A stretch of 64,000 nt of DNA from an uncultured Bdellovibrionales bacterium (GTDB taxonomy: Bacteria; Bdellovibrionota_C; UBA2361; OMII01): the NCBI GenBank assembly GCA_964413875.1, contig CAYPUA010000012.1:8068-72067 (forward strand), written 5' to 3'. A model generated the notes under the pieces. The model was given only the letters and a program-made list of their open reading frames with translations. It made no database searches and was not told where the DNA came from. The position numbers were made by a program, and so were the translations under genes. Shown piece by piece: positions 1 to 14,018 of the stretch (its first letter is position 1; every line of letters starts with the position of its first letter).

Positions 1-1529
1 TCAGCCGGGCTTAGTTCCTTCGCCTCAAGCAGTTCCGAGAGGTACAACGAACGAATTTGGGGAACAGCCGCCATGATGGCGATTGTCGACTGCTCAATCG
101 GCTCCGGAGCTCTGCCAACCTCTTTGGCTGCGTTCGAATACAGCGGGCGGAATAGATCTACCCTCTGAAGATCCAGCCCCAGCGCCGCAGCTAGCTGTGC
201 GGTACCCAACCTGTCGCCCTGATACCCCTGCTGCAGTAGCTCTACACGAGTGCTGTCCGAGATCGACGGATTGAGGATCTTCAGGGCAATCGGAGCATTG
301 CCAGCCACCAGCATTGAAGGGTTTGGGCTAGCCGACCAGTCACGTACAAGGTCCGAGGAGCGAATTAACCCGAGTCGCCGAGATCTAGCAGTAACTATCT
401 GGAGAATCTCCTTCCTCTCGCCTGCGTCTCTCGCCTCCGCGGCGAATCGCAACAACGATTCGTGAGCCATCGGATCGTCAGAAGCGGCCAACGCCTGAAT
501 CTCTCCCCGTAGAGCTACTGGTGTCGAACCTGCGCCGAAGAATCGCTGGAGACCGCCAGGCTGCAGAACACTGAGCCCCACAAGTAGGCCGATCAGCACC
601 GCGAGAGTTACCAACACGATCGTTCCAGTTCTCCTGCCCCGAGGGGCAGACTTGAAATCGATCACCACACTCTCTGACTCGACATCTCTGGCTACAGAAG
701 CCACTTTTTTTGGCGCACCGACCAAGACCTCAGAGCGCTCTCGGAGTATCGCCTGCATCAGCGCTGTCGCGGTCTGCGGTCGATCCTCGGCAGCGCAAGA
801 AAGAATCGGGAGGACCGCAGGATTGAACCAACTCGGGGCTCGGTCGAGCGGAGGAAAATTCGTGTCAACACGGCGCTCCACACTACGGGCTGTTTCGACA
901 AGTGGCTTTGCGGAGAAGAAGCGGTATGAAAGTCGCGCGAGCGCAAAGACGTCGGTGTTAAACGCGCCAGATGGCTCCTCAATTTGCTCGGGCGCGAGGT
1001 ACATATGAAGCTCTTGAGCCTCCTCGAGCGGTGCTGCTGTGAAGAGCTCAGACCCGGAAGTGAGAATTCCTAGTCCGCCGAGAAAGCGAACTTCTCCGCC
1101 ACTCGTGAGAAGAAATGATTCGAGGCAAACATCTCCACAGGCGACGCCGGCTTTATGCATCCGCTCAACTGCTCGGACGCAGCCAAGCCATCGGCGCTCG
1201 GCTTCCCGTCGATCGACTCGACCCTCAAGTATGTGGCGTCCTGAGAAGAGTCGGAACGAGATCCATCCATGTCGCATAGGGTCGAGCCCAAAAGCGATCA
1301 CCTCTGGCTGACCCGGGACGGCACAGAGCTGATCGGCTCGGCGTAGAAACCGATCGACTGCTTCAGGCGATAGCGGCCCCCGCGAAATCCACAGAGCCAC
1401 GCTGCTACGAGACGCTCGGTCGATTGCTTTGAAGGTTTGTCCGGAGAGCGAGTACGCCAACCGAGCTTCTAGGGTAAACCGCTCTTCTATCGGAACCGAC
1501 AGGTCAGCGCGCCTACTCTCTGACTGCAT
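1..1529 (-). CDS. Membrane-anchored pseudokinase: degenerate Hanks-type Ser/Thr-kinase-like cytoplasmic domain, single TM helix, extracytoplasmic C-terminal region. Start codon in window; 3' end lies beyond the window start.
   Basis: Translating the minus strand by hand from ATG 1527-1529 gives an uninterrupted frame of ~510 codons running off position 1. It is not in the ORF track, presumably because no stop codon lies within the window. The N-terminal ~280 aa show kinase-fold landmarks with catalytic residues replaced: 'VALW' in place of VAIK, 'HKAGVACGDVCLESFLL' in place of HRDLKPENILL, 'FLGGLG' in place of DFG, and an APE-like 'YLAPEQI'. A hydrophobic helix 'TIVLVTLAVLIGLLVGLSVL' follows. 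The translation was done by eye, so individual residues are approximate. Confidence 0.5.
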   Translation of the reverse strand, partial: MQSESRRADLSVPIEERFTLEARLAYSLSGQTFKAIDRASRSSVALWISRGPLSPEAVDRFLRRADQLCAVPGQPEVIAFGLDPMRHGWISFRLFSGRHILEGRVDRREAERRWLGCVRAVERMHKAGVACGDVCLESFLLTSGGEVRFLGGLGILTSGSELFTAAPLEEAQELHMYLAPEQIEEPSGAFNTDVFALARLSYRFFSAKPLVETARSVERRVDTNFPPLDRAPSWFNPAVLPILSCAAEDRPQTATALMQAILRERSEVLVGAPKKVASVARDVESESVVIDFKSAPRGRRTGTIVLVTLAVLIGLLVGLSVLQPGGLQRFFGAGSTPVALRGEIQALAASDDPMAHESLLRFAAEARDAGERKEILQIVTARSRRLGLIRSSDLVRDWSASPNPSMLVAGNAPIALKILNPSISDSTRVELLQQGYQGDRLGTAQLAAALGLDLQRVDLFRPLYSNAAKEVGRAPEPIEQSTIAIMAAVPQIRSLYLSELLEAKELSPA

Positions 1530-1714
1530 GATGTCCACCTAGTGCGCCCCCTACTACTGCCTCGTTGAGAAAGTTTTTCCACCTAACGACGTTGCAGCCT
1601 TGAACGATGCAGTAGCCATATCTAGCGTGTTTTCGGCGCGAAAGGCGCCGAACGCGAACAACCCTAGCGCTGCCTTTAACGGAATGAAGGTGATAAGACT
1701 TTTTGACAGCATCA

Positions 1715-3868: not shown

Positions 3869-4789
3869 TCACATAGACGTTACGATCTGAAGTCCGAACC
3901 CGATCAAGAGTATGGCGAGGTATCCGAAGAATACCAGCGCCACGGGAGCAGTAGCTGCTAGCTCAAGTTTTTTGATCTTCTCCTCAATGCGAGCCTCACG
4001 CTGAGACGAAACGCTGTCTGCCAAATCTTGAAGCTGCTTACTGATCTCTCCACCGTGCTTGGCGACCTGCGAGAGCGCCAGGAAGGCATGCTTAAGGTCG
4101 TTGTGCCCCTGAAGCTGCCCTACTTCGGTTAGTGCTTCTTCAAGGCTCGAACCTGACTTTATGTGGAATTGCGCATACCGAAGGAGCTCTGTAACGGGGT
4201 TATGAGTATCACGCTCGTCGGCCATCTGAACGATCCGCATGAGGCACGGTCCGATATCGAGGGAGCTGCTAACCCCGATCGATACCTGTTCGATTACGAG
4301 TGGTAAGTAGAACAAGATCTCATCTTGGCGGCGATTGATTCGGCGCTCAAGGACCTTGAAGGGAATATAGAGCCCAAGAATTAAACCTACCAATGCAAAT
4401 AACAGCACCTGCTGCGTCCCCCCGAGCCCCTTGCCGAGGAGAGCTAAGACTACCACTGATATAATCGGAACCATCACCTGCAAGCGTTTGAAGTCGGACT
4501 TCTGCTTGCTGGAAAAAATGCCGGCCCGGAAGAGCTTCTCCTCTAGTGATGGCTCCCCTCCCTTTTTCTTTTCCTTGATCACTGACTTCCGAAGGCGATC
4601 TAGCTCCTCACCACTCTCGTCCTTCTGTATGCGCTGACGAAGCTCAGCCATCGACTGGCTGTACTGCTCAGCCGCCATCAGGCCCCGGTAGCTTCGCTGC
4701 GTCGCCGAGTAACGTTGGTACAGCAGGTAGCCCCCGGTAACTATCGCTACGATCGCTGCAATGACTGGAACGAGAAGCGATGAGTCCAT
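3869..4789 (-). CDS. tadC: Tad/Flp pilus assembly inner-membrane platform protein TadC-like (T2SS-F/GspF fold).
   Basis: ORF 3869..4867. I trimmed the start to the Met of 'MDSSLLVPVIAAIVAIVTGG' (ATG at 4787-4789) so that it begins 4 nt after the tadB stop at 4794. TM helices and a TadC-like C-terminal half ('LEEALTEVGQLQGHNDLKHAFLALSQVAKHGGEISKQLQDLADSV'). Confidence 0.8.
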   Translation of the reverse strand: MDSSLLVPVIAAIVAIVTGGYLLYQRYSATQRSYRGLMAAEQYSQSMAELRQRIQKDESGEELDRLRKSVIKEKKKGGEPSLEEKLFRAGIFSSKQKSDFKRLQVMVPIISVVVLALLGKGLGGTQQVLLFALVGLILGLYIPFKVLERRINRRQDEILFYLPLVIEQVSIGVSSSLDIGPCLMRIVQMADERDTHNPVTELLRYAQFHIKSGSSLEEALTEVGQLQGHNDLKHAFLALSQVAKHGGEISKQLQDLADSVSSQREARIEEKIKKLELAATAPVALVFFGYLAILLIGFGLQIVTSM

Positions 4790-4793
4790 GGTC

Positions 4794-5780
4794 CTATACC
4801 TTGAGCTTTGTAACCTGCCTGACCCAGAAAATGCCGAGGAGAATGGCGCACACCCCACCCTGACCAACCATGCGGCCCGTCGGATGTGTCCAAGTCAGAA
4901 CAACACACTGCGGCCACGTGAAGTACATGTAGAGTTCAAGCGCAGCAAGCACCCCAAGAATGAACCAGATAGAGCCTCTCTGTTGTCCAACCGCTGCGTT
5001 CGCAGCCTGCCGAAAGTACTGACGACGCCGAACCTGTCGAGCGAGCCGATCGAGCGTGTCGGAGAGGTTTCCGCCAACCCGCTTGCTGAGGATTAGAGCC
5101 TGCACGAAAAGCTCAATCTCAGGGTGGTAGATATCTTCTCCAAAAGAGCCGATGGATCGCTCCTCCGAAACGCCCATCCGAAGACGTTCAAGCATCAGGT
5201 CAACTTCACGTTTCACGAGCGAGCCTTCCTCTAGCCCGCTTGCAGCTGCCTGAAGGGCCTGCGTCACATTGAGGCCGGTCTTTATCATTCCCACAAAGCT
5301 GAGCAGAAACTGCGGAAAGTCGCTGTCAAACCTCATAAAGCGGTTGTTGATGCGGCGGTTGAGAAGCCAGTTCAGAAGCAGCGGTCCTGTAAAGAGCGAG
5401 ACGACCTGCAACATAGTATCGAAGTACAGTCGGGTAACGAGGAACGCGAGCAAACTGACTATTATTTGGGCCAGGCTGAATGCGTACGGAGGTATGTGAG
5501 ATAGCTCGGCGAACTTTAACCGCTTGCGGATTGTGAGCTGCGTATCAGAGACTTTCTCGACCGCTATTTGCTCCAGGGCCGTACTCGTAATAGAGGCGGC
5601 AGCTTCTCCATTTTCTAGGCCCGCCTCCGCACGCTGGAGCTCAACTATCGAGCGCATCTGACGGCGAAGAGTCATCGGAGAGACAGCTCTGCCAGAGATC
5701 GGGAGGCGCATGATGAGCGCTGCGGCGAGCACCACCGCGATCACTCCAGCAACTATGGCGAGCACAGCCATCGGTTCCAT
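4794..5780 (-). CDS. tadB: Tad/Flp pilus assembly inner-membrane platform protein TadB-like (T2SS-F fold).
   Basis: 328 aa with an N-terminal TM helix. Typical TadB motifs: 'FPQFLLSFVGMIKTGLNVTQALQAAASGL', 'ALILSKRVGGNLSDTLDRLARQVR'. Begins 10 bp after the cpaF stop. Confidence 0.8.
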   Translation of the reverse strand: MEPMAVLAIVAGVIAVVLAAALIMRLPISGRAVSPMTLRRQMRSIVELQRAEAGLENGEAAASITSTALEQIAVEKVSDTQLTIRKRLKFAELSHIPPYAFSLAQIIVSLLAFLVTRLYFDTMLQVVSLFTGPLLLNWLLNRRINNRFMRFDSDFPQFLLSFVGMIKTGLNVTQALQAAASGLEEGSLVKREVDLMLERLRMGVSEERSIGSFGEDIYHPEIELFVQALILSKRVGGNLSDTLDRLARQVRRRQYFRQAANAAVGQQRGSIWFILGVLAALELYMYFTWPQCVVLTWTHPTGRMVGQGGVCAILLGIFWVRQVTKLKV

Positions 5781-5790
5781 GACGCCAGCG

Positions 5791-7353
5791 TTATCCTCCC
5801 TTGAGCGTTACCCCAATAATCGGCGCGAAGGTAATCTCCGGTGGTGAGTCACCGAGGAAAATTCCGTCTGCCTTTAGCTGCTCATCAAAATTGCTCGACC
5901 ACGATTCAACGCGCCACAAGGGCTTCGCCCCCTGCTTTATGAGTGAGAACATCGGGCGAACCTGTATTGTGCCCTCAACGAAATGTCCTACTTCTATCAC
6001 TTCGGCGATTCGAGGCCTGCCGGTACTCTTCTCGCGAATCAGCCAAACGACGCAGTCCACTGCGAGCGCTATCTGCTGCCGAATGATGTCTATGGCGACG
6101 GACTTCTGAGCTCTGCCCAGTAGGCTCTCAAGACGCACAAGCGTCTCTCGGGCGTTGCGCGCGTGGATAGTGGACATACCCACGTGGCCGGTCTGTGCGC
6201 TCTCCAGAAATGCCTCGGCCGCGAACGGGGTTCGCATCTCTCCAAGGATAACTCGTGTTGGAGTCATTCGGAGTGTTGTCTTGATATGCTCCTGGAGCGT
6301 TACCTCGCCAGCTCCCTCGGAATTTGCGGGGCGTGACACGAGCGAGCGAAAGTAAGGGTGTTGGAAATTGAGCTCTGGGGTGTCCTCAACCGCAACGATC
6401 GACTCACTAGAGCCAAACTGCGTGGCGAGACACTTTATCAGGGTTGTCTTTCCTGTTCCGGTCTCCCCGGCCACCATCATCGTAGCGAGTCCGCAGCGCA
6501 CCAGAGAGGCTAGGTAGTTCACGATCAGGGGCGGTGCAACCTGGTAGGCGATAATGTTCTCAAGGCTTGCCTCGCTGATGCGTGGAATTCGGATACACAG
6601 TAGTGGCCCACGCTGGCCACACACACTCTCATGCACCGCGCAGAGGCGCACACCGTTCGGAAACGACGCATCGACCGTGTGCTGCTGTGTCGTGAGTGAC
6701 TTGCCAAGCCGCAACAGGAGCCGATCAATGAAGGTTACGTACGCTTGCTGATTCGGCCAACTGAGGCCGGTAGTCTCACTGATCTTACCGCGCTGCAGCA
6801 CGACCGTCTTGTAGTCGTAGACATGGATGTCAGTTACATCCCGGTTGTCCATAAGGGGCTGCAGAACACCCCACCCCACCAGGTCTTTCTGGAGGTGAAT
6901 GATGATATTCACGCGCTCGATATCGTCGAGCGCTTCGCCACGCTTGCGGATGACTCGGTCAACTGCCTGAGCGATAACCTGCTCGGTCGCAGCAACAGTC
7001 GTCATCTGCTGCTGGAGAGTAAGGTCACTTCCGAGCTCGCGGCGGGCCTCGCGCATGACTGTCGATGCTGCTGCAGACATCTCCTGGGTTTTCGTCGCAG
7101 CAGGTTTAGCTGGCTGTTGAGCGGGCTGTGGCGCTGCGCTTTCTGCTGGGGCGGTGGCCTTGGCTTGGTCGGTTGCGGGCTTATCTGAAGGACTGCTGCC
7201 GCGTGCTGGACCCGAGCCCTCCGAACCTGAGCTGCGCCCGTGCGATGCTCGGGTCGAGAAGAGCCCAAGCAGGTCGTCTTTGGTATCTTTTTTTGAGCCT
7301 GACATAACCTTGCTCTCCAGTGCCTGCCTCGTTGCAAGAAGCAGCGCACGCAA
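5791..7353 (-). CDS. cpaF: CpaF/TadA-type secretion ATPase (T2SS-E / VirB11 superfamily) with a long low-complexity Ser/Ala/Pro-rich N-terminal extension.
   Basis: Walker A 'GETGTGKTTL'. Conserved CpaF blocks: 'IVAVEDTPELNFQHPY', 'TPTRVILGEMR', 'GHVGMSTIHA'. The first ~130 aa are a low-complexity A/P/S/Q-rich region; an internal start is possible. Confidence 0.9.
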   Translation of the reverse strand: MRALLLATRQALESKVMSGSKKDTKDDLLGLFSTRASHGRSSGSEGSGPARGSSPSDKPATDQAKATAPAESAAPQPAQQPAKPAATKTQEMSAAASTVMREARRELGSDLTLQQQMTTVAATEQVIAQAVDRVIRKRGEALDDIERVNIIIHLQKDLVGWGVLQPLMDNRDVTDIHVYDYKTVVLQRGKISETTGLSWPNQQAYVTFIDRLLLRLGKSLTTQQHTVDASFPNGVRLCAVHESVCGQRGPLLCIRIPRISEASLENIIAYQVAPPLIVNYLASLVRCGLATMMVAGETGTGKTTLIKCLATQFGSSESIVAVEDTPELNFQHPYFRSLVSRPANSEGAGEVTLQEHIKTTLRMTPTRVILGEMRTPFAAEAFLESAQTGHVGMSTIHARNARETLVRLESLLGRAQKSVAIDIIRQQIALAVDCVVWLIREKSTGRPRIAEVIEVGHFVEGTIQVRPMFSLIKQGAKPLWRVESWSSNFDEQLKADGIFLGDSPPEITFAPIIGVTLKGG

Positions 7354-7654: not shown

Positions 7655-8614
7655 TCACTGCGGCTTACCGTTGAGAGCCGCCACCTCTTCGGGAGACAGA
7701 AGCTTTCCGGCCACGATGAAGTAGTCTCGACCTCCAACCGTTACCTTCCCCTCAGTCTGTACCTGCTGCGTCGGTTGCTTTGTGCCGACTCCGAGAATCG
7801 TCTCTATTCCGATGGTGGTGTTCTGGGGCGACTCCACGGTGTCTTCGTCTCCGCGCAAGGCGAGGCTCAGCGTCCCCGCTTTAGCGGCGAGCTGAATCTT
7901 AGCGGCATCGTCTCCGGTAACCATCAGGGTGACTGTTGTCTGCGCTTTCGGATCTGAGGGAGAGGCACCTGGCTCTCCTGAGGTACTACGAGAAGCCGAT
8001 AGAACCTTCGCATTCTGGACAATGACTGTAAGCGTTGGCTTCTGAACTCGAGTTGGAGAGAGCATCACGTCTACTTTTGCGCCAGCTCGCGCCCATCCCT
8101 CCACGCTGGTGGTGGAATCAACAGACATAGTCACTGCGCGAAATCCATCTGGGATTTTCGCCTGAATCTGGTTGAGCGGCGGGTTGGAGGTAATGTAATC
8201 GAGCATCACAGGCTCTCCCGCGGCGATAAAAGAAGCTGCGTACGCTGAGCGGAGCTGGTCAAAGCTTGTCACGATATTTGCGCTTCCTCCTACTATCGCT
8301 CGGGTCTCTTTCCGAAACATGCTCGGATCAAGCTGCATACCGGTATCGATTTTCTGGATCGGAACAAGCACGTCGAGCGTCTCTGTGACAGGCTGCGGGA
8401 TGGACTGGGCTGTTTGCTGTGGTCCGGAGCTCGATGTTTTGCCGATGACGTAGAAGACCACGATGCCGAGGCACAAGAAGAGCAGGGCCAACAACACGAG
8501 GGTTGTGACGGGGGAATTGCCTTTCTGACTTTTTAGCGGACGAGAATTGCTAGTGGGCATGGCCCTCAGAGGTGTTCTGTTTTCAAAATTTATGAACTCG
8601 CGGGGTGTTGTCAT
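7655..8614 (-). CDS. cpaB: CpaB/RcpC-family Flp pilus assembly protein.
   Basis: N-terminal TM helix 'VTTLVLLALLFLCLGIVVFYVIG', followed by a CpaB-like periplasmic region ('TLTVIVQNAKVLSA...TVTLMVTGDDAAKIQLAAKAGTLSLALR'). An alternative start is at the Met of 'MPTSNS' (8560). Confidence 0.75.
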   Translation of the reverse strand: MTTPREFINFENRTPLRAMPTSNSRPLKSQKGNSPVTTLVLLALLFLCLGIVVFYVIGKTSSSGPQQTAQSIPQPVTETLDVLVPIQKIDTGMQLDPSMFRKETRAIVGGSANIVTSFDQLRSAYAASFIAAGEPVMLDYITSNPPLNQIQAKIPDGFRAVTMSVDSTTSVEGWARAGAKVDVMLSPTRVQKPTLTVIVQNAKVLSASRSTSGEPGASPSDPKAQTTVTLMVTGDDAAKIQLAAKAGTLSLALRGDEDTVESPQNTTIGIETILGVGTKQPTQQVQTEGKVTVGGRDYFIVAGKLLSPEEVAALNGKPQ

Positions 8615-8740
8615 AACCTACGACGCAGAAAGGGGGCCTTCGCAACGCGAAAGCCCCCTCCTGGTTCAGCAGCGCAGCACAAGGCTTGAATGGCGAGCAA
8701 CTGCCACCAACCGGAGCTTGCGCGGGCAAGTAACAGATTA

Positions 8741-8920
8741 CTAGTTAGCACCCGTAATGGCGCTGGAAGCCGAGCTGAACTTTCCGGTGATTGAAGTCCC
8801 CAGCGTGGTAACTGCCGCGATGGCAACAACCGCGATCAGCGAAACGAGTAGCGCGTACTCCACCATCGATGCTCCACGCTCAGAGCGTGCGTCATTCTTA
8901 ACCATCTCATCCTTTTTCAT
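8741..8920 (-). CDS. flp: Flp/Fap-family pilin precursor (59 aa). Not in the ORF track because it is shorter than 60 aa.
   Basis: Manual minus-strand translation gives MKKDEMVKNDARSERGASMVEYALLVSLIAVVAIAAVTTLGTSITGKFSSASSAITGAN. It contains the Flp prepilin signature (G/ASMVEYALL followed by a hydrophobic helix). It lies directly upstream of cpaB on the same strand. Confidence 0.7.
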   Translation of the reverse strand: MKKDEMVKNDARSERGASMVEYALLVSLIAVVAIAAVTTLGTSITGKFSSASSAITGAN

Positions 8921-9105
8921 AACAACCCTATCGTTCTAAGTTACCCGTTAGCTGCCCGAAGGCAATCCTAAGAGAGCTGGTTGGAACACATTGGGGCTTT
9001 CCAACACTCCTGCCGTAGGAACCGGCAGGACCCGCGAGCCACCCCAGCGTAATCGCGCCAGGTGCAACCTCACAAGAGCCTTTTTATTCTACCATCCGAC
9101 CCTAC

Positions 9106-9127: not shown

Positions 9128-9170
9128 GCATCTCGCCAGAATAACAGACACAAACCGAGTCCGAGGGGTG

Positions 9171-9199
9171 AAAAACCATTTAGCGCAGACACTTGCGCT
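9171..9199 (-). terminator. Candidate rho-independent terminator downstream of tadZ on the minus strand.
   Basis: Hairpin AGCGCA-GACACT-TGCGCT (9182-9199). In the minus-strand transcript it is followed by AAAUGGUUUUUCAC. The stem is short (6 bp). Confidence 0.3.
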
Positions 9200-9253
9200 C
9201 GACCACGGCATCATTTGACGGAGCTCTAACTGCGGTCGCTACCGCTCTCATAC

Positions 9254-10543
9254 TCAGCGGGTCGAGGCCTCGCCCTTCCTCCCGAACATGCGAGAGAGCC
9301 AGCTTGATGTGGTGTTGGCGCGGGGTCGCAGGGGGCGCCCCGATCCATCAGGAGCGCCTGGCAGCAGAGCGGTGGTATCCTCGACCCCTATCAATCCTAG
9401 TTCTCGGGCGACCTTGTCGAGCGTTTGGCGCATGGACTTGCTACCCATGCTGTACAGCGTTTGACTACTACCTGCCCAAAGGGCTGCCTTCGTCTCAAAC
9501 GGGAGGGCGGGCAACCTCCAGGGCGCTGCCCCGAGCCGATGAGCGGGCTCCAGCTCAGCCGCAATCTGCTGCACCGTCATCAGTGCGTTCGAGCAAGGGT
9601 TTACGAGGAAGCAGAGTCGGTCGGGGCTACCCACCAGATTCTTGATAAAGTTGAGATAAAGATCGACGGCCGTTAGACCTAAAATCGTGTCGTCGATTAC
9701 CACAAGCACTACATCCGCGCTTCGGATGAGTGCACCGGTAGCTGGCCCCAGCCTGCCGCAGGTATCGATCAAGATGACATCGAAGAGCACTCGAGAGAGT
9801 TCGAGGATGCGTTGCGCAATCCCGATACCATCGGCGTGACATACGAGGTCAATTGACTCCGCGAATTTATCCGGAGCCATCAACACAGAAACCTCACTCG
9901 AGATCGGAACGAGCGCATCTCGCATCGACTCGCGATCTATTTCTCTGCTGCCGTTCACCCAAGCGCTGATTACCTTCGCCTCAGCTCCGGTTACCGTCAG
10001 GGAACGACTTAGGTCATGCGTCTCGACGTCAAGGTCCCACAGCATAGTGCGGCGGTTGTAGACACTGCAAACCTCCGCAAGAGCAGCCGTAGCAGACGTG
10101 GCTCCCACTCCGCCTTTCGCCTGCACTACCGCCACGACTCGTCCCTCGTGAGTCCGCCCTTCCTTTCGGAAGTCTGAGTGGATTGCAACGAGCTCCTGTA
10201 AGAAGTCGAGTGGGCTGGCACTATCCGGAAATACTTTTCGAACACCAACCGAATGGGCAGACCGAAACGCCCCACCTCCGTAGGAGCTATCGCTCACAAA
10301 CATGACGATCTGGATCCAGGGTGCAAGAACCTGTGCCTGGCGTGCGATGGCGATCGCTCGCTCGCCCACACCGGATCCAATGACAAGAACATCGGCCTCA
10401 ACGACGCGCTCAGAGAACTCCTGCTCGTTAACAAGCTTAACCTTGAGATCGAGCATCTCCATGTCACTGCGACTGAACGACTCTACTCGTCTAGCGCAGA
10501 AGGCCTGAGATTCGTTTGAGCTATCAACAATGAGAAGTTTCAT
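9254..10543 (-). CDS. tadZ: TadZ/CpaE-type pilus-assembly localisation protein: atypical receiver-like N-terminal domain plus ParA/MinD-like ATPase domain.
   Basis: 429 aa. N-terminal 'MKLLIVDSS...' CheY-like fold. Deviant Walker A 'VVAVVQAKGGVGATSATAALA', in which the second Lys of KGGxGKT is replaced by Ala. MinD-like core 'VILIDTCGRLGPATGALIRSADVVLVVID'. Confidence 0.75.
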   Translation of the reverse strand: MKLLIVDSSNESQAFCARRVESFSRSDMEMLDLKVKLVNEQEFSERVVEADVLVIGSGVGERAIAIARQAQVLAPWIQIVMFVSDSSYGGGAFRSAHSVGVRKVFPDSASPLDFLQELVAIHSDFRKEGRTHEGRVVAVVQAKGGVGATSATAALAEVCSVYNRRTMLWDLDVETHDLSRSLTVTGAEAKVISAWVNGSREIDRESMRDALVPISSEVSVLMAPDKFAESIDLVCHADGIGIAQRILELSRVLFDVILIDTCGRLGPATGALIRSADVVLVVIDDTILGLTAVDLYLNFIKNLVGSPDRLCFLVNPCSNALMTVQQIAAELEPAHRLGAAPWRLPALPFETKAALWAGSSQTLYSMGSKSMRQTLDKVARELGLIGVEDTTALLPGAPDGSGRPLRPRANTTSSWLSRMFGRKGEASTR

Positions 10544-10552
10544 GACGGGTTG

Positions 10553-12007
10553 CTAAAAAAGCTTCTCCAAAAGCCCCGGAGCGAAAAGCTTCAGGAACAC
10601 AAAACCAAAACCTATCCCCACAAGCGCGGCACCACCCATGGCAATCGCATCACCGACCATCGTGCGCTTTGACACCTCTGGCTCGGCGTACTTTTTAGAC
10701 AGAGCTGCGAACTGGCCGGGGGCCGGCCCTTTGCGTTGCCCCGCTCTCGGCGTGCTCCCCCAATCGTCAGACACAACATCTGGGGCTGGCTCTACTCGCG
10801 CTCCACCCGGCTTCGTCGAACCAGTTGATCGATTCTGAGACTCAAGTGCTTGGCCGACGTACGACGCGTCAAGAACTTGGGTGTTTGCCTTCTCAATCAC
10901 CTGGTCTCCGTCCGTGCCACTCCGCACCCGCGTGCCGCCGCCGCGACCGAGCATGGCCCCTGACGTGACTTGCGTATCACCGATAGGTCCCGCCGACACC
11001 GCGATATTCGTCTGTCGCCCCCCTGTCGGCGGAGCTGCATCAGCAGGAGCGTCCGAAGGCCCATCGCTGAGAGAAGGGCCAACGTACGGGGTCCCTTGCC
11101 CAGCTCCCTGGTTCGGCAAAAACAAGCCGCCAGTGATTGCAGAGCGCAGTCCTAAGTCCGACGCTAGCTTCTGCAGATCAAAAAACATGTCCATTCCTGC
11201 TTGGTAGCGACTTTCGGGCTCCCGCTGCATCGCTTTGAGGATGATTGTATCCAGGCCCGCTGGACACTCTGGCCGCAGCTTGCTGGGGGACTCTGGATCG
11301 GTCTTCAGACGCTTGGTCATCGTCGCGTAAACGCTATCGCCGCGGAACGGGGACTCACCCGTCACCATCTCGTACGCAAGGATCCCAATCGCATAGATGT
11401 CTGATCTCCAATCGACTTGCGAGCGCAGCATGTACTCAGGCGCCACGTAGTCGATCGTTCCGACAACTCCTCCATGCTCAGTGAGCTTCGGGCCGTGGCG
11501 ATTTCTTGCGATTCCGAAGTCCGCAATCTTTACATTCCCCTCGTTGGTCAAGAGAATGTTCTCTGGCTTAAGGTCTCGGTGCACGATACCGGCATCGTGA
11601 ATAGCTTGCACACCTGCCGCCATCTGACTCAAGACGCGGATAATTTCAGCGATTGGCATCCGCTCTGGGTGACCGAGTCGTTCCGCGAGGTCGCCTCCTC
11701 CAACGAACTCCATCGTGTATGCGACGAGATCCCCGTCGCGGAGATACTCGTACGCTCGCACCACGTTCGGATGGGAAACACCGTAAGAGGCAAGGATCTC
11801 ATTGCGGAATCGAGCTGAAGCGACCCGATCCTGTGCGACCTCAGGGAAGAGCACTTTCGCCGCTACCATCTGCCCCTGCAGCTCCCGATGCCGGCAGGCG
11901 TACACCAACCCCATGCTACCGGAGCCGAGGCACTTGACGACCTCGTACTTACCCCCAATCACGGTACCCGGCTGGAGGCTAATGATATGCTCGTCGGTCA
12001 TGGTCAC
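10553..12007 (-). CDS. Hanks-type Ser/Thr protein kinase with a disordered linker and a C-terminal TM anchor.
   Basis: Intact catalytic motifs: 'GSGSMGLVY', 'VAAKVL', 'HRDLKPENILL', 'DFG', 'GTIDYVAPE'. C-terminal hydrophobic 'AIAMGGAALVGIGFGFVFLKLFAP'. Confidence 0.9.
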   Translation of the reverse strand: MTMTDEHIISLQPGTVIGGKYEVVKCLGSGSMGLVYACRHRELQGQMVAAKVLFPEVAQDRVASARFRNEILASYGVSHPNVVRAYEYLRDGDLVAYTMEFVGGGDLAERLGHPERMPIAEIIRVLSQMAAGVQAIHDAGIVHRDLKPENILLTNEGNVKIADFGIARNRHGPKLTEHGGVVGTIDYVAPEYMLRSQVDWRSDIYAIGILAYEMVTGESPFRGDSVYATMTKRLKTDPESPSKLRPECPAGLDTIILKAMQREPESRYQAGMDMFFDLQKLASDLGLRSAITGGLFLPNQGAGQGTPYVGPSLSDGPSDAPADAAPPTGGRQTNIAVSAGPIGDTQVTSGAMLGRGGGTRVRSGTDGDQVIEKANTQVLDASYVGQALESQNRSTGSTKPGGARVEPAPDVVSDDWGSTPRAGQRKGPAPGQFAALSKKYAEPEVSKRTMVGDAIAMGGAALVGIGFGFVFLKLFAPGLLEKLF

Positions 12008-12026
12008 TTAGCAGACGCTCCTCTCG

Positions 12027-12959
12027 CTACCCTTGTGAGGAATTACCCATCACGAGACAGACATGAAAATTACGATCCCCGAAGCTTACGATATCGCCAT
12101 GGCTCAACACCGCTTTCTCGCCAGACAGTAGAATCTCCTCTCCTGTGTCGAACTTGCGTATACGGGTGCCACTCTCTGAGAGCTGGTCGAGCACCTGAAT
12201 CGAACCGCCAGCGGCAACGCGCATGACCGCATGCGAAGGCGAAACACTTTCGTGATTCAAAACGAGACAATTGCTTGCCGGATCTGGCTGGGCTGAAACA
12301 ATGAGTCGCCCAGTTCTCAGCTCCAGGTACGACCCTGCTGGCTCATAGTCGAACGAAACGAGGAATCCCACCAGCTGTGTGCAGGACTTCCAGTATACCT
12401 CTTCGGCTCCAACTGCAGCTTCTGTCAGCATATGTTCCTCTGGGACATGAACAAACTCCGGTGCCGGGTCGGGGGTAAACGGTGCTGGTTCTGGGATCGC
12501 ACGGTGTTCGGTCACAATGTCTCCTGAGCTGGCGAAGAGCCCAAGCGGATCCCACATTGGAGGCTTTCCCCCGCCTTCTATCACGTCAGTATCGTGCGGC
12601 ACCGACTCAATTGCTTCGGCTTCTGACACTTCAGAAAGTTCTCCGTCCGCATACACGGATTGACCAGTGGCAACCTCTTCATCTCCCGGCTCAACTACCT
12701 CTGCCACCGGAGCAACTGGGGCTTTTCTCACTCCCATATCGCTACTAACTCGCGGGGTCTCCCAGTGAGCTTCATCAGCCTGAACAGGGGCCTCCAAGCC
12801 GCCAATCCGGCTACCCTGAGATTCTCCGCCCAAACGAGCACGCATACCTCCGGTGAGGTTTGAATCGAGAATGACCGTATGGTTCTTAGCCCGGTTTGCG
12901 CTCCCCTCGCGAACGCGCGGGGTAGAACCACGAGGCAATTTGCTACTACTGTCTTCCAT
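12027..12959 (-). CDS. FHA-domain protein (disordered acidic N-terminal region, C-terminal FHA domain).
   Basis: The C-terminal ~100 aa match the FHA fold: '...GRLIVSAQPDPASNCLVLNHESVSPSHAVMRV...GEKAVLSHGDIVSFGDRNFHV'. Confidence 0.8.
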   Translation of the reverse strand: MEDSSSKLPRGSTPRVREGSANRAKNHTVILDSNLTGGMRARLGGESQGSRIGGLEAPVQADEAHWETPRVSSDMGVRKAPVAPVAEVVEPGDEEVATGQSVYADGELSEVSEAEAIESVPHDTDVIEGGGKPPMWDPLGLFASSGDIVTEHRAIPEPAPFTPDPAPEFVHVPEEHMLTEAAVGAEEVYWKSCTQLVGFLVSFDYEPAGSYLELRTGRLIVSAQPDPASNCLVLNHESVSPSHAVMRVAAGGSIQVLDQLSESGTRIRKFDTGEEILLSGEKAVLSHGDIVSFGDRNFHVCLVMGNSSQG

Positions 12960-12968
12960 CGTCCTCTC

Positions 12969-14018
12969 TCATCGCAAAAATTGAAAAGCCAACGCACCAG
13001 CGATCGTTGCTCCCGCCGCAAGGACCGTCATGATTGCCAGAAACACGAAATGCTTAAAAACGCCCGTTCCGGTTGGAGATCCCACACGCTGTTCGCTAAC
13101 TACCGTGACCTTAGAATCCTCAGACGGCTGAGAGGTACGGAGCACTCCGGGCATCCTAATGACCGCGACAGAGATGTTGTCGAATCCACCCCGCTCGCGG
13201 GCAAGCTCAATGAGCTTTGCTCCCGCATCTTGAGGCGAAAGGCCTGACGCGATGCTTCCAATCTCTATGTCCGGAACTAAACTGTAGAGCCCGTCAGAGC
13301 ACAGAACGACCACATCGCCCTCTCCATCAGCATCAGCTGGCCAGAGCCAGAGCCGCTGCGAGTGCACGTTTGGGCTTGGCTCAGAACCGAGACAACGAGT
13401 GAGCACATGCGCTTCGGGATGGCTCAGTGCTTCTTCAGCCCGCAGCTTCCCATCGTCAACGAGTGTCTGGACAAACGTGTCATCGACCGTTAGCTGCTGA
13501 ACGGCTCCATCTCGCACCAGGTAGGCGCGCGAATCTCCGATGCTAGAGATGACTGCTTCCCTGCCATCAAAGCGCATCGCCACAGCGGTTGTACCCATCC
13601 CCTGGAACTCCGGATTTTTGCGCCGCAGAAGTATGATTCGATTTGCTTCCCGAAATGCCGCGCCAAGCACATCGATGTTAGGGGCACTCTCAGATGATTG
13701 CTGAATGGAGCGTGATACCGCGTCTACTGCGAGCTGAGCTGCAAACTCTCCACCCGCTGCCCCGCCCATCCCGTCGCACAAGAGCCAAGTTATGGCGCTC
13801 CCATCGCGGATGGTCTCGACGCGATCCTCGTTCAGCGTTCTTTCGCAGCCGCAGTCGGTGAAGCAAGAAGCTTCTAGAGAGCTCTTCGGTGATCGGAAAG
13901 ACCGCCGGGACTCTCCCTGCATTTGACCTCGTAGCATACGCAATGCTTCCCTCCCGTTGAGGTCCACTCGCCGGCGCAACGCCGAGCGCACCTCCGAGGA
14001 CACCAGACGACCAGCCAA
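12969..14018 (-). CDS. PP2C-family (PPM) Ser/Thr phosphatase with a C-terminal TM anchor.
   Basis: 'LLCDGMGGAAGGEFAAQLAV', 'ISSIGDSRAYLV', 'LCSDGL', 'ERGGFDNISVAVI'. C-terminal hydrophobic 'FVFLAIMTVLAAGATIAGALAF'. Confidence 0.85.
   Translation of the reverse strand: MAGRLVSSEVRSALRRRVDLNGREALRMLRGQMQGESRRSFRSPKSSLEASCFTDCGCERTLNEDRVETIRDGSAITWLLCDGMGGAAGGEFAAQLAVDAVSRSIQQSSESAPNIDVLGAAFREANRIILLRRKNPEFQGMGTTAVAMRFDGREAVISSIGDSRAYLVRDGAVQQLTVDDTFVQTLVDDGKLRAEEALSHPEAHVLTRCLGSEPSPNVHSQRLWLWPADADGEGDVVVLCSDGLYSLVPDIEIGSIASGLSPQDAGAKLIELARERGGFDNISVAVIRMPGVLRTSQPSEDSKVTVVSEQRVGSPTGTGVFKHFVFLAIMTVLAAGATIAGALAFQFLR

What the first reader, a model, noticed from the sequence alone, without database searches (positions are those of the whole stretch)
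9254..14018. Thr/Ser phosphosignalling module (PP2C - FHA - STK) in one operon with TadZ
Four co-directional genes are separated by 9-19 bp: a TM-anchored PP2C, an FHA protein, a TM-anchored Hanks kinase, then TadZ/CpaE. This mirrors the PpkA/PppA/Fha threonine-phosphorylation pathway that gates T6SS firing, but here it is wired to a Tad-type machine. TadZ has a deviant Walker A (KGGVGATS, second Lys replaced by Ala) and a receiver-like domain lacking an obvious phospho-Asp pocket. It may act as a regulated localisation hub rather than an ATPase.
Basis: partly seen in the sequence, partly recalled or inferred. Interest (0 to 1): 0.6.

Follow-up and report, generated by a model that had tools for sequence, protein, structure and literature searches.

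The report
Thr-phosphorylation module hard-wired to a Tad pilus
A kinase, a phosphatase and a phosphothreonine-reading adaptor sit in one tight operon with the organiser gene (tadZ) of a Tad pilus cluster. This arrangement is conserved across an uncultured Bdellovibrionota lineage, which suggests that phosphorylation switches the pilus machine on and off. No experiment supports this yet.

Summary
On the minus strand, PP2C (14018-12969), FHA (12959-12027), Hanks kinase (12007-10553) and a TadZ-like ATPase (10543-9254) are separated by 9, 19 and 9 bp. Downstream lie flp, cpaB, cpaF, tadB and tadC, then an FHIPEP (SctV/FlhA-like) gene and a pseudokinase/HEAT gene.

In 80 related loci from uncultured Bdellovibrionota MAGs, 58 of 65 informative loci carry the complete block directly upstream of tadZ. 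Three of the seven exceptions are second, paralogous tad loci in genomes that also carry the block.

All catalytic and phosphothreonine-binding residues are invariant. Kinase and phosphatase are C-tail-anchored and have no sensor domain. The FHA protein is a roughly 185-residue disordered region followed by a C-terminal FHA domain, with an invariant Thr28 in an N-terminal motif RA(R/K)N(R/H/K)T(V/M)xL.

Best reading: a post-translational threonine phospho-switch on Tad assembly or motor recruitment. It is analogous to the T6SS threonine-phosphorylation pathway, but not a member of it. It would also supply the kinase arm missing from FHA-rich Tad/Kil systems. All evidence is genomic. Verdict: new variant of a known kind.

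The parts
12969..14018 (-). PP2C-type Ser/Thr phosphatase, C-tail-anchored. This is the longest ORF; the likely true start is Met28 at base 13937.
   Evidence: Pfam PP2C_2 52.9 bits and PP2C 35.4 bits. NCBIfam Stp1/IreP 198.6 bits, below the cut-off of 230. Metal-binding residues D65, D82, G83, D162, D242, D280 and N281 are invariant in 58/58 orthologues. The C-terminal hydrophobic 19-mer ends a median of 6 residues from the C-terminus in 58/58. Start inferred from alignment gaps.
12027..12959 (-). FHA adaptor: an N-terminal motif RA(R/K)N(R/H/K)T(V/M)(M/I)L containing Thr28, a roughly 185-residue disordered region, then a C-terminal FHA domain (residues 186-305).
   Evidence: Pfam FHA 27.5 bits. 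AlphaFold2 gives pLDDT 85-92 for residues 186-305 and below 55 for residues 1-185. G217, R218 and H243 are invariant in 61/61 and S240 in 60/61; the canonical Asn position (263) is variable. Thr28 is invariant in 61/61. The motif is present in at least 105 of 135 50%-identity cluster representatives.
10553..12007 (-). Hanks-type Ser/Thr kinase: kinase domain (residues 21-270), a roughly 170-residue disordered juxtamembrane region, and a C-terminal tail anchor. No extracytoplasmic domain.
   Evidence: Pfam Pkinase 179.4 bits. K51, E70, H143-R144-D145, N150, D163-F164-G165 and activation-loop T184 are invariant in 65/65, and T176 in 64/65. The DFG+1 residue is Ile166, conserved at 90% or more. 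The transmembrane segment ends a median of 18 residues from the C-terminus in 63/64. The T-x-[VI]-[LIM] motif (window T376-QVL) occurs in 39/65 disordered regions against 7.4 expected from shuffles.
9254..10543 (-). TadZ/CpaE-like organiser: an atypical receiver domain (residues 1-128), a MinD/ParA-like ATPase domain with Walker A AKGGVGATS, and a C-terminal GGW(L/F)x(K/R)xFG(R/K)K tail.
   Evidence: Pfam AAA_31 49.2 bits. The AlphaFold2 model (pLDDT 65.8) has a (beta-alpha)5 N-terminal domain. The best PDB fold match is 3fkq, the E. rectale two-domain protein published as TadZ (identification from my own knowledge; the row names it only as an 'NtrC-like two-domain protein'), at E 9.2e-9 over 411 columns. 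Walker A and G56 are invariant in 76/76. C-terminal motif. Orthologues are 65-97% identical across the 120 listed 90%-identity clusters.
9182..9199 (-). Weak terminator-like hairpin about 55 bp after the tadZ stop codon.
   Evidence: Consensus scan. The number of such sites in the region is not above shuffle expectation, so this is suggestive only.
9045..9095 (-). Promoter-like element upstream of flp, conserved in close relatives: an A-rich tract, CTTG, about 17 nt, then TAC.CT.
   Evidence: Alignment A3 of six orthologous tadZ-flp intergenic regions. The invariant columns are A173, A177-180, C185-T186-T187-G188 and A211-C212. Function is inferred.
8741..8920 (-). Flp-type pilin (59 aa) with a G/ASMVEYALL processing motif.
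   Evidence: ORF translation. Orthologues carry Pfam Flp_Fap.
8631..8659 (-). 13-bp GC-rich hairpin directly after flp; a likely attenuator or terminator.
   Evidence: Read directly from the sequence. Function is inferred.
7655..8614 (-). CpaB/RcpC pilus assembly protein. The likely start is Met19.
   Evidence: Pfam RcpC 72.5 bits. NCBIfam pilus_cpaB 110 bits, above the cut-off of 71. Start inferred from the alignment.
5791..7353 (-). CpaF/TadA motor ATPase of class II (N-terminal disordered region), with a conserved extreme N-terminal L(L/I)G(L/M)FSTR motif. The likely start is Met17.
   Evidence: Pfam T2SSE 109.7 bits. NCBIfam TadA-family 212.7 bits, below its cut-off. N-terminal motif. CpaF class definitions: PMC12019362.
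4794..5780 (-). TadB platform protein.
   Evidence: Pfam T2SSF 53.4 bits.
3869..4867 (-). TadC platform protein. The longest ORF overlaps tadB, so the true start is probably later.
   Evidence: Pfam T2SSF 46.7 bits.
1715..3826 (-). FHIPEP export-gate protein (SctV/FlhA-like), conserved directly after tadC.
   Evidence: Pfam FHIPEP 584.5 bits. NCBIfam SctV 565.8 bits against FlhA 517.8 bits, both below their cut-offs. Best PDB sequence match is 7alw ('Low calcium response protein', i.e. LcrD/SctV) at 384.8 bits, against FlhA at 320.2 bits. Present after tadC in nearly all loci.
3..1538 (-). Pseudokinase, transmembrane segment and HEAT-like repeat protein. It runs off the window; the full length is 759 aa in L004.
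   Evidence: Pfam Pkinase 20.3 bits, below its cut-off, with HEAT_2 also below its cut-off. Catalytic residues are replaced across 49 orthologues: VAIK Lys to Trp in 38, HRD to CGD, catalytic Asn to Ser in 42, and the DFG Asp lost. It follows the FHIPEP gene in 47 of 49 loci.

Best explanation
The four genes form an operon that encodes a self-contained threonine phospho-switch dedicated to the adjacent Tad (Flp) pilus machine.

**Shown**
- The kinase is predicted to be active and Thr-preferring.
- The PP2C phosphatase is predicted to be active.
- Both enzymes are held at the cytoplasmic face of the inner membrane by C-terminal tail anchors and have no sensor domain.
- The FHA protein has an intact phosphothreonine pocket.
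- The TadZ-like organiser has the usual non-catalytic-looking Walker A and a degenerate receiver domain, plus a MinD-like amphipathic C-terminus.
- The block is conserved next to tadZ across the lineage.

**Inferred mechanism**
1. The kinase phosphorylates itself in its disordered tail, at the candidate site T376 within a T-x-V-L motif.
2. The FHA domain docks on that phosphothreonine.
3. The kinase then phosphorylates the adaptor at the invariant Thr28. This residue also sits in a T-x-x-L context, which FHA domains favour.
4. Phospho-Thr28 is read by an FHA domain in cis (a GarA/OdhI-like closing switch) or in trans.
5. This changes whether the adaptor's disordered region engages TadZ and/or the disordered N-terminus of the CpaF motor. 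The result gates assembly of the motor-platform complex.
6. PP2C resets the switch.

Because neither enzyme has an external domain, the input most likely comes from the machine or the membrane itself, for example pilus load or retraction state, or clustering by TadZ. A periplasmic ligand is unlikely.
For: **Identity and spacing**
- Gene identities and the 9/19/9-bp spacing.
- A full Tad core lies downstream.

**Conservation**
- Complete block adjacent to tadZ in 58 of 65 informative loci, plus 8 truncated contigs that are consistent.
- Median gaps of 18, 23 and 25 bp within the block, against 190 bp between tadZ and flp.
- Three genomes hold a second tad locus (TadZ 41-47% identical) that lacks the block. 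The block therefore travels with one particular Tad system, not with tad genes in general.
- The same arrangement is seen in metagenome contigs reached independently through distant FHA homologues.

**Residues**
- Catalytic and binding residues are invariant or nearly so.
- DFG+1 is Ile, which marks Thr preference according to PMC3898841. That paper appeared and was not read in detail.
- Tail anchors.
- Thr28 is invariant in 61/61 orthologues. The motif is present in at least 105 of 135 cluster representatives of the wider FHA family.
- The kinase disordered-region motif T-x-[VI]-[LIM] occurs in 39/65 sequences against 7.4 expected.

**Precedents**
- FHA domains are fused to the CpaF disordered region in 'class III' CpaF orthologues (PMC12019362).
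- FHA proteins are over-represented in the Myxococcus Kil Tad-like clusters (PMC8460266).
- FHA genes lie near tad genes in B. bacteriovorus.

Together these make phosphothreonine control of Tad motors a recurring theme whose kinase has not been identified.
Against: - There is no experimental or expression data. All organisms are uncultured MAGs.
- No target within the Tad machine is identified.
  - TadZ is too uniformly conserved to single out a site.
  - The Thr of the CpaF N-terminal FSTR motif is Ala or Ser in one subclade. That motif also persists in loci that lack the block. It is probably not the phosphothreonine site.
- Loci L042, L062, L064 and L077 lack the block with ample upstream sequence. 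L065 and L073 also show no kinase gene, within 1.9-3 kb of visible upstream sequence. Coupling is therefore not obligatory, or the genes have moved elsewhere in those genomes.
- AlphaFold2 leaves the N-terminal motif unstructured and does not dock it on the FHA domain.
- The canonical FHA Asn that contacts the peptide backbone is not conserved.
- The closest 150 relatives of the FHA domain are all stand-alone proteins. None is a CpaF fusion, so the fusion argument is by analogy only.
Confidence: 0.6

Rival explanations
1. This is a general-purpose signalling cassette that merely neighbours the tad genes. On this reading the kinase, phosphatase and FHA triad controls something else, such as envelope growth or division as with PknB/PstP/FhaA in Actinobacteria. 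The TadZ-like ATPase would act as an Ssd/MinD-like positioning protein in that process.
For: - The best NCBIfam hit of the TadZ-like protein is the actinobacterial CpaE homologue Ssd ('septum site-determining'). It scores 51 bits, below the cut-off of 154.
- Its closest solved sequence relatives are FleN, Soj and MinD.
- Several lineage members keep the Tad cluster without the block upstream.
- Bacterial Hanks kinases are often pleiotropic (general knowledge).
Against: - The block is always immediately upstream of tadZ, with gaps of roughly 10-25 bp, in 58 loci that span 49-99% TadZ identity.
- There is no PASTA or other envelope-sensing domain.
- The fold search places the ATPase closest to 3fkq, the structure published as TadZ.
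- The FHA family with the Thr28 motif was found only in this arrangement in the four contexts examined.
Confidence: 0.18
2. The module regulates the whole composite cluster, in particular the orphan FHIPEP (SctV/FlhA-like) export gate and its pseudokinase/HEAT neighbour. For example, it could switch one cell pole between pilus and flagellum, or couple a Tad pilus to a stripped-down type III export gate as in the Myxococcus Kil/T3SS* pair.
For: - The FHIPEP gene follows tadC in nearly all loci, and the pseudokinase follows it in 47 of 49.
- The FHIPEP protein scores slightly higher as SctV than as FlhA.
- Kil and a needle-less T3SS cooperate in M. xanthus (PMC12428579).
- From my own knowledge: pseudokinase domains can be kinase substrates that recruit FHA proteins (M. 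tuberculosis MviN-FhaA), and Chlamydia PknD phosphorylates the FHA-containing T3SS protein CdsD.
Against: - No other T3SS genes lie in the cluster or the window.
- The organism has flagellar genes (FliD), so the FHIPEP may simply be its FlhA.
- The FHIPEP and pseudokinase genes persist in loci that lack the kinase block, namely L042, L062, L065 and L077.
Confidence: 0.12
3. Control is at the level of gene expression or protein abundance, as in the Sulfolobus archaellum regulatory network. There the FHA protein ArnA, its partner ArnB and the kinases ArnC/ArnD set the levels of filament components.
For: - The archaellum is a type IV filament relative of Tad. Its FHA and kinase regulators act on component levels (PMC6509490, PMC5300886, PMC12852372; titles and abstracts).
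- flp has its own promoter-like element, which could be a regulated point.
Against: - The FHA protein has no DNA-binding or zinc-finger domain, only a disordered region plus FHA.
- Kinase and phosphatase are membrane-anchored, which fits action at the machine.
- No transcription factor is encoded in the block.
Confidence: 0.07

Closest known systems
T6SS threonine phosphorylation pathway (PpkA / PppA / Fha1 in P. aeruginosa; PpkA-TssL-Fha in Agrobacterium, PMC3953482)
   Same: A Hanks kinase, a PP2C phosphatase and an FHA protein are encoded inside the gene cluster of an envelope-spanning nanomachine. The presumed logic is the same: reversible Thr phosphorylation read by an FHA domain gates assembly.
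   Different: - The machine is a Tad pilus, not a T6SS.
- The kinase has no periplasmic domain, and there are no TagQRST-type partners.
- Both kinase and phosphatase are tail-anchored.
- The FHA protein has an N-terminal Thr motif and a C-terminal FHA domain.
- No homology beyond the shared domains was shown.
Myxococcus xanthus Kil system (Tad-like killing apparatus, PMC8460266), and tad neighbourhoods of B. bacteriovorus (bioRxiv 10.64898/2026.07.08.737194)
   Same: A Tad-type machine in a Bdellovibrionota/Myxococcota-type organism is associated with FHA-domain proteins, and authors suspect a signalling cascade. In Myxococcus it also cooperates with a reduced T3SS.
   Different: - In Kil the FHA domain is fused to the ATPase KilF, and no kinase or phosphatase is reported in the clusters. 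'Kinase' occurs 0 times in the paper.
- Here the FHA protein is separate, and the kinase and phosphatase are in the operon.
- No secretin, prepilin peptidase or minor pilins lie in this window.
- B. bacteriovorus has a TadZ-TadA fusion that lacks the receiver domain. Here TadZ is separate and keeps it.
TadZ/CpaE family (E. rectale TadZ structure 3fkq; A. actinomycetemcomitans TadZ; C. crescentus CpaE)
   Same: - Two-domain layout: an atypical receiver domain plus a MinD/ParA-like ATPase.
- Walker A of the type K/RGGxGxS/T.
- No phospho-acceptor Asp.
- Position in a tad locus.
   Different: - Only about 13% identical to 3fkq, and detectable by fold but not by sequence.
- Carries a MinD-like C-terminal amphipathic motif.
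- Co-operonic with a kinase, phosphatase and FHA triad.
GarA/OdhI-type FHA switches of Actinobacteria (from my own knowledge)
   Same: A small protein with a conserved N-terminal phospho-acceptor Thr motif, a flexible linker and a C-terminal FHA domain. This layout allows self-recognition after phosphorylation.
   Different: - A different motif (RARNRTVML rather than ETTS).
- A much longer linker (about 170 residues).
- No link to TCA-cycle enzymes.
- Self-binding was not shown here.
Class III CpaF orthologues (FHA-IDR-CpaF fusions, PMC12019362)
   Same: These link an FHA domain physically to the disordered N-terminus of the Tad motor, which implies phosphothreonine-dependent control of CpaF.
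   Different: - Here CpaF is class II (disordered region only) and the FHA domain is on a separate protein.
- The closest relatives of this FHA domain are all stand-alone proteins.
Sulfolobus archaellum regulatory network (ArnA FHA, ArnB vWA, ArnC/ArnD kinases, PP2A)
   Same: A type IV filament machine controlled through an FHA protein and Hanks-type kinases.
   Different: - Archaeal.
- Acts on component abundance.
- ArnA has a zinc finger.
- The phosphatase is PP2A/PTP, not PP2C.

Membership tests
TadZ/CpaE | Two-domain architecture: N-terminal atypical receiver domain plus C-terminal MinD/ParA-like ATPase. | tested here: met
   The AlphaFold2 model shows a (beta-alpha)5 domain at residues 1-128 followed by an ATPase domain. 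The top PDB fold hit is 3fkq (the structure published as TadZ) over 411 columns, E 9.2e-9, but TM-score is only 0.37-0.44 and model pLDDT is 65.8.
TadZ/CpaE | Atypical Walker A of the type K/RGGxGxS/T (P-loop Lys missing). | tested here: met
   AKGGVGAT(S/T) is invariant in 76/76 orthologues. The consensus is quoted.
TadZ/CpaE | Receiver domain without the phospho-acceptor Asp. | tested here: met
   Gly56 occupies the end-of-beta3 position in 76/76 orthologues.
TadZ/CpaE | Encoded within a tad locus with flp, cpaB/rcpC, cpaF/tadA and tadB/C. | tested here: met
TadZ/CpaE | Passes a curated family model. | tested here: not met
   The best NCBIfam hit is TIGR03815 (CpaE_hom_Actino/Ssd) at 51 bits, against a cut-off of 154. 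This is an equivalog model for Actinobacteria, so failing it says little. There is no sequence-level hit to 3fkq.
TadZ/CpaE | Localises the Tad machine and acts as a recruitment hub. | not testable with these tools
   Needs microscopy or interaction assays.
Hanks-type Ser/Thr kinase (active) | Gly-rich loop, VAIK Lys, alphaC Glu, HRD, catalytic Asn, DFG and APE motifs. | tested here: met
   Pfam 179.4 bits. G28, G30, G33, K51, E70, H143-R144-D145, K147, N150, D163-F164-G165, P190 and E191 are invariant in 65/65; the first APE position is Ser in 35 and Ala in 30.
PP2C/PPM phosphatase (active) | Conserved metal-binding Asp residues in the DGxGG, GDS, SDG and DN motifs. | tested here: met
   Pfam PP2C_2 52.9 bits. 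Residues are invariant in 58/58 orthologues. The Stp1/IreP equivalog cut-off is not reached (198.6 against 230).
FHA domain (phosphothreonine-binding) | Gly-Arg, Ser-x-x-His and Asn-Gly signature residues on an 11-strand beta sandwich. | tested here: inconclusive
   G217, R218 and H243 are invariant and S240 is present in 60/61. The model shows a beta sandwich with pLDDT 85-92. The Asn of the NG signature is not conserved (F/S/H/Y/A/N).
T6SS threonine phosphorylation pathway | Kinase, phosphatase and FHA protein encoded in the machine's own cluster. | tested here: met
   The machine, however, is a Tad pilus.
T6SS threonine phosphorylation pathway | T6SS core genes (TssA-M, Hcp, VgrG) as the regulated machine. 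| tested here: not met
   No such family was found in Pfam scans of the larger ORFs of the 64-kb window.
T6SS threonine phosphorylation pathway | PpkA-type kinase with a periplasmic sensor (vWA-like) domain and TagQRST partners. | tested here: not met
   The kinase ends a median of 18 residues after its single transmembrane segment. No extra domains were found.
Myxococcus Kil-type Tad system | ATPase (KilF) fused to an N-terminal FHA domain. | tested here: not met
   CpaF shows only T2SSE plus a disordered N-terminus.
Myxococcus Kil-type Tad system | Secretin, prepilin peptidase and pseudopilins in the clusters. | tested here: not met
   None was found in the window. They may lie elsewhere in the genome.
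Myxococcus Kil-type Tad system | Contact-dependent prey killing. | not testable with these tools
   The organisms are uncultured.
GarA/OdhI-like self-inhibiting FHA switch | N-terminal phospho-acceptor Thr motif, linker and C-terminal FHA domain. | tested here: met
   Thr28 is invariant, the linker is disordered and the FHA domain is C-terminal. This covers architecture only.
GarA/OdhI-like self-inhibiting FHA switch | Phosphorylated motif binds the protein's own FHA domain. | not testable with these tools
   AlphaFold2 without phosphorylation leaves the motif free. Peptide-binding assays or NMR are needed.

The most novel reading that the evidence does not exclude
The cluster is one integrated machine in which a dedicated, sensor-less kinase/phosphatase/FHA switch reads the mechanical or assembly state of a Tad pilus. 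Through the adaptor and the conserved pseudokinase/HEAT protein, the switch would couple the pilus to an orphan SctV-like export gate. That would be a minimal counterpart of the Myxococcus Kil plus needle-less T3SS pairing, evolved in an uncultured, possibly predatory freshwater Bdellovibrionota lineage. It would also identify the long-sought kinase arm of FHA-dependent Tad control.
Probability: 0.12. Interest if true: 0.8.

Novelty: new variant of a known kind. Interest (0 to 1): 0.55.

Why it matters
FHA domains recur around Tad machines. They are fused to CpaF in many betaproteobacteria, abundant in the Myxococcus Kil clusters, and found near tad genes in Bdellovibrio. No kinase or phosphatase has been tied to any of them in the papers I could search.

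This lineage packs all three signalling parts into one operon with tadZ. It also offers specific, testable sites: Thr28 of the adaptor and the T-x-V-L site in the kinase tail.

If the switch works as proposed, it would extend the 'threonine phosphorylation gates a nanomachine' principle from T6SS to type IV filaments. It would also give a compact system that can be rebuilt in E. coli, for asking how pilus motors are switched after translation.

Tried and rejected
- **Sequence searches of the TadZ-like protein against solved structures** found only FleN, Soj and MinD, not TadZ (single sequence, 12-sequence profile). Only the fold search recovered 3fkq.
- **Rfam scan of 7000-15000** at E up to 1 gave no RNA family.
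- **A sigma-54 promoter upstream of flp** was considered and rejected. The GG-to-GC spacing is about 13 nt, not 10 (read). The simple sigma-70 and terminator scans are not above shuffle expectation.
- **An 'NRT' motif at the CpaB N-terminus** of the window lies upstream of the conserved start and is not conserved. It is an artefact of taking the longest ORF.
- **'EANRTIML' in some PP2C orthologues** resembles the adaptor motif but sits inside the catalytic fold. I treat it as coincidence.
- **The CpaF N-terminal FSTR motif as the phosphothreonine site** is unlikely. The Thr is Ala or Ser in one subclade, and the motif persists in loci without the block.
- **Fusion ('Rosetta stone') test:** the 150 closest relatives of the FHA domain among 1.84 billion cluster representatives are all stand-alone proteins of 116-513 aa. 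In 148 of them the FHA domain lies at the C-terminal end; the other two (116 and 136 aa) look like N-terminally truncated fragments. None is a CpaF fusion.
- **AlphaFold2 of the adaptor** did not place the Thr28 motif on the FHA domain.
- **What replaces the block in loci that lack it:** housekeeping genes in L042 and L064, and an unrelated PP2C plus a kinase-receiver fusion several kb away in L077.
- **Literature searches** combining Tad, TadZ or CpaF with kinase, FHA or PP2C terms found no paper describing this linkage. The library lacks most subscription journals, so absence there is weak evidence.

Full report
**What is there**

All genes of interest are on the minus strand. In the direction of transcription they are:

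| Gene | Coordinates | Length |
|---|---|---|
| PP2C phosphatase | 14018-12969 | 349 aa |
| FHA protein | 12959-12027 | 310 aa |
| Hanks kinase | 12007-10553 | 484 aa |
| MinD/ParA-like ATPase with a receiver-like N-terminus | 10543-9254 | 429 aa |

- The PP2C length is the longest ORF. Orthologue alignment points to a start at Met28, base 13937.
- The gaps read from the coordinates are 9, 19 and 9 bp.
- Pfam confirms every assignment above its curated cut-off: PP2C_2 52.9 bits, FHA 27.5, Pkinase 179.4, AAA_31 49.2.

A 333-bp gap follows tadZ. After it come:
- a 59-aa Flp pilin with the G/ASMVEYALL motif (8920-8741)
- cpaB/rcpC
- cpaF/tadA
- tadB and tadC
- an FHIPEP gene (3826-1715)
- a gene that runs off the window start (1538-3)

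Pfam scans of the other larger ORFs found no secretin, prepilin peptidase or minor pilin in the 64 kb.

**Where it comes from**

The TadZ-like protein has hundreds of close relatives, 65-97% identical, all from metagenomes. A scan of species-representative genomes returned 80 loci. All are uncultured MAGs, labelled Bdellovibrionota, Bdellovibrionales, Oligoflexia or 'Deltaproteobacteria', and many come from freshwater lakes. The nearest is L007, 99% identical, named in its record as 'Deltaproteobacteria bacterium isolate ZE-3nov15-121'.

**Is the linkage conserved?**

I searched the loci with tblastn using the window's proteins and made a strict count.

| Outcome | Loci |
|---|---|
| Complete PP2C-FHA-kinase block, same strand, directly upstream of tadZ | 58 |
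| Contig too short, but what is visible fits | 8 |
| Uninformative | 7 |
| Enough upstream DNA, block absent | 7 |

- Of the seven without the block, L079, L080 and L081 are second tad loci in MAGs that also carry the block at their first locus (L061, L050, L020). Their TadZ is only 41-47% identical.
- Two of the seven 'uninformative' loci, L065 and L073, show 1.9-3 kb of upstream sequence with no kinase gene. They probably lack the block too.
- In L042 and L064 the upstream genes are housekeeping. In L077 an unrelated PP2C and a kinase-receiver fusion lie several kb away.
- Median gaps within the block are 18, 23 and 25 bp. The tadZ-flp gap has a median of 190 bp.
- Two contexts reached independently through distant FHA homologues show the same order.

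The linkage is therefore real, old and specific to one Tad system of this lineage. It is not universal within the lineage.

**Transcription units**

- A weak terminator-like hairpin lies about 55 bp after tadZ.
- An element in the tadZ-flp spacer is conserved among close relatives: an A-rich tract, CTTG, about 17 nt, then TAC.CT.
- A 13-bp GC-rich hairpin follows flp.

I read this as a four-gene operon ending with tadZ, and a separately promoted flp. Read-through cannot be excluded. No Rfam family matches the region.

**The enzymes look active and sit at the membrane without sensors**

- *Kinase.* K51, E70, HRD, N150, DFG and activation-loop T184 are invariant in 65/65 orthologues, and T176 in 64/65. 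The DFG+1 residue is Ile at 90% or more. That residue marks Thr preference according to the DFG+1 rule (PMC3898841, title seen; the rule itself is from my own knowledge).
- *PP2C.* The metal-binding Asp residues are invariant in 58/58.
- *Anchoring.* Each enzyme has one hydrophobic segment at the very C-terminus. The median number of residues after it is 6 for PP2C and 18 for the kinase. Neither has an extracytoplasmic domain. This is a clear difference from PpkA-type or PASTA-type kinases.

**The FHA protein**

- AlphaFold2 with a 24-sequence alignment gives a confident beta-sandwich for residues 186-305 (pLDDT 85-92). Residues 1-185 are disordered.
- G217, R218 and H243 are invariant and S240 is present in 60/61. 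The Asn of the usual Asn-Gly signature is variable.
- The otherwise variable N-terminal region holds one striking island, R-A-(R/K)-N-(R/H/K)-T-(V/M)-(M/I)-L. R23 and T28 are invariant in 61/61, and A24 and N26 are each present in 60/61.
- A search of 1.84 billion cluster representatives with the FHA domain alone found 329 clusters at E up to 1e-10. The top 150 are all stand-alone proteins of 116-513 aa, nearly all with the FHA domain at the C-terminal end.
- At least 105 of 135 new representatives carry the motif under a strict pattern. Most of the rest are near variants or N-terminally truncated fragments.
- Thr28 sits in a T-x-x-L context, which many FHA domains prefer (my own knowledge).
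- The kinase's disordered tail carries a T-x-[VI]-[LIM] motif, T376-QVL in the window. It occurs in 39/65 orthologues against 7.4 expected from shuffles, mostly in register.

**The TadZ-like protein**

- Sequence searches against solved structures find only FleN, Soj and MinD.
- The AlphaFold2 model (pLDDT 65.8) has a (beta-alpha)5 N-terminal domain and a MinD-like domain.
- Its best PDB fold match is 3fkq. The row describes this entry only as an 'NtrC-like two-domain protein' from E. rectale; I know it as the structure published as TadZ. The match runs over 411 columns at E 9.2e-9, with a modest TM-score of 0.37-0.44.
- The Walker A, AKGGVGAT(S/T), matches the published TadZ consensus K/RGGXGXS/T. 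The receiver lacks the acceptor Asp (Gly56), as expected for the 'atypical receiver domain' of TadZ.

One thing may be unusual. The C-terminus carries GGW(L/F)x(K/R)xFG(R/K)K in nearly all orthologues. This resembles the amphipathic membrane-targeting helix of MinD, as I recall it (...GFLKRLFGG). It would put TadZ at the membrane next to the two tail-anchored enzymes. That is an inference.

**The motor**

CpaF has a roughly 130-residue disordered N-terminal extension, which makes it class II in the scheme of PMC12019362. At its extreme N-terminus is a conserved L(L/I)G(L/M)FSTR motif. The Thr is Ala or Ser in one subclade, and the motif persists in loci without the kinase block. I read it as a docking motif, not the phosphothreonine site.

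The same paper reports that class III CpaF orthologues carry an FHA domain fused to this disordered region. This is independent support for phosphothreonine control of Tad motors. The FHA domain here is not closely related to any fusion protein.

**Proposed mechanism**

The 'shown' steps are listed above. The inferred steps are:
1. The membrane-anchored kinase autophosphorylates its tail.
2. The adaptor's FHA domain docks there.
3. Thr28 is phosphorylated.
4. Phospho-Thr28 is read in cis (GarA/OdhI-like) or in trans.
5. This changes how the adaptor's disordered region engages TadZ and/or the CpaF N-terminus, and so gates motor-platform assembly.
6. PP2C resets the switch.

With no external domains, the input most likely comes from the machine or the membrane. 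My confidence that the block regulates this Tad system post-translationally is about 0.6. Confidence in the individual steps is lower.

**Comparison with known systems**

- *T6SS threonine phosphorylation pathway.* The logic is the same. The window fails two membership features: it has no T6SS genes, and the kinase has no periplasmic domain or Tag partners.
- *Myxococcus Kil system.* The theme is shared: Tad-like, FHA-rich, with a suspected signalling cascade (PMC8460266; PMC12428579). However, KilF carries a fused FHA domain, no kinase is described, and Kil clusters hold a secretin.
- *B. bacteriovorus.* FHA genes lie near its tad genes, and it has a TadZ-TadA fusion without the receiver domain.
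- *Sulfolobus Arn network.* It controls a related filament through an FHA protein and Hanks kinases, but at the level of component abundance.

I found no paper that describes a kinase/PP2C/FHA operon joined to tadZ. The searchable library is incomplete.

**Beyond the finding**

- *FHIPEP gene.* It follows tadC in nearly all loci. It scores a little higher as SctV than as FlhA: 565.8 against 517.8 bits in NCBIfam, both below their cut-offs. Its best PDB sequence match is an LcrD/SctV chain, 7alw, at 384.8 bits, against FlhA at 320.2 bits.
- *Pseudokinase.* In 47 of 49 loci the FHIPEP gene is followed by a 759-aa protein with a kinase-like domain, a transmembrane segment and HEAT-like repeats. 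Its catalytic residues are systematically replaced: Lys to Trp, HRD to CGD, Asn to Ser, and the DFG Asp lost.
- *Flagellum.* The organism also has a flagellar cap gene, fliD. The FHIPEP may therefore simply be FlhA, and I could not check for a second copy.
- *Composite machine.* These two genes persist in loci without the kinase block, which argues against their being its obligatory targets. The Tad-plus-export-gate pairing does recall Kil/T3SS* and is worth a genome-wide check.

**Verdict**

- This is a new variant of a known kind of control.
- All evidence is comparative genomics on uncultured organisms.

Noticed in passing
window 1715-3826 (-): An orphan FHIPEP export-gate gene lies directly after tadC and is conserved there across the lineage. 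It scores slightly higher as SctV than as FlhA (NCBIfam 565.8 against 517.8 bits, both below their cut-offs; best PDB sequence match is the LcrD/SctV chain 7alw). No other T3SS genes are nearby. Whether it is the organism's only FHIPEP, and hence its flagellar FlhA, is unknown.
   Followed up: partly
window 3-1538 (-), full length in L004 18879-21158: A conserved pseudokinase, transmembrane segment and HEAT-like repeat protein follows the FHIPEP gene in 47 of 49 loci. Its catalytic residues are replaced: Lys to Trp, HRD to CGD, catalytic Asn to Ser, and the DFG Asp lost. It is a possible scaffold or substrate for the active kinase.
   Followed up: partly
window 9254-9320 (-), TadZ C-terminus: The C-terminal motif GGW(L/F)x(K/R)xFG(R/K)K is conserved in nearly all TadZ orthologues and resembles the MinD membrane-targeting amphipathic helix. 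It is absent or degenerate in the paralogous tad loci L079-L081.
   Followed up: partly
window ~7240-7305 (-), CpaF N-terminus: The extreme N-terminal motif (D/E)xL(L/I)G(L/M)FSTR on CpaF is followed by a roughly 100-residue disordered linker. It is conserved even in loci without the kinase block. A similar DPLGLF motif occurs in the adaptor's disordered region in the closest relatives only.
   Followed up: partly
window ~8540-8560 (-) and orthologues: The cytoplasmic N-terminus of CpaB begins M(S/A/T)R(H/Q)FGG in many orthologues. This is a third short 'FG' motif in the cluster, and its meaning is unknown. The window's own copy differs (MPTSNSRP).
   Followed up: no
window 9045-9095 (-) and 8631-8659 (-): A conserved promoter-like element lies upstream of flp, and a 13-bp GC-rich hairpin lies right after it. 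This suggests separate, possibly attenuated, high-level pilin transcription.
   Followed up: partly
window 15735-16907 (-): A SpoIIE/PP2C-family phosphatase (Pfam 156.6 bits) with an N-terminal region that looks receiver-like by eye but is not called by Pfam. It lies about 1.7 kb upstream of the operon and is conserved there only in the nearer relatives.
   Followed up: no
L079, L080, L081: Some MAGs carry a second, differently ordered tad locus (cpaF-tadB-tadC-tadZ-cpaB-tadE-tadG in L081). It has no kinase block, FHIPEP gene or pseudokinase.
   Followed up: partly
whole window: No secretin (CpaC/RcpA), prepilin peptidase or minor pilin genes lie anywhere in the 64 kb. The Tad system must be completed from elsewhere in the genome.
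   Followed up: partly
L077 5722-6987: In a sub-lineage that lacks the block, a Hanks kinase fused to a response-regulator receiver domain and a 580-aa PP2C protein lie 3-8 kb upstream of tadZ. They are separated from it by dprA and an unknown 769-aa protein.
   Followed up: no
window 57637-59043 (-): The flagellar cap gene fliD is present, so the organism is probably flagellated. The neighbouring 446-aa ORF (59125-60465) has no Pfam match.
   Followed up: no
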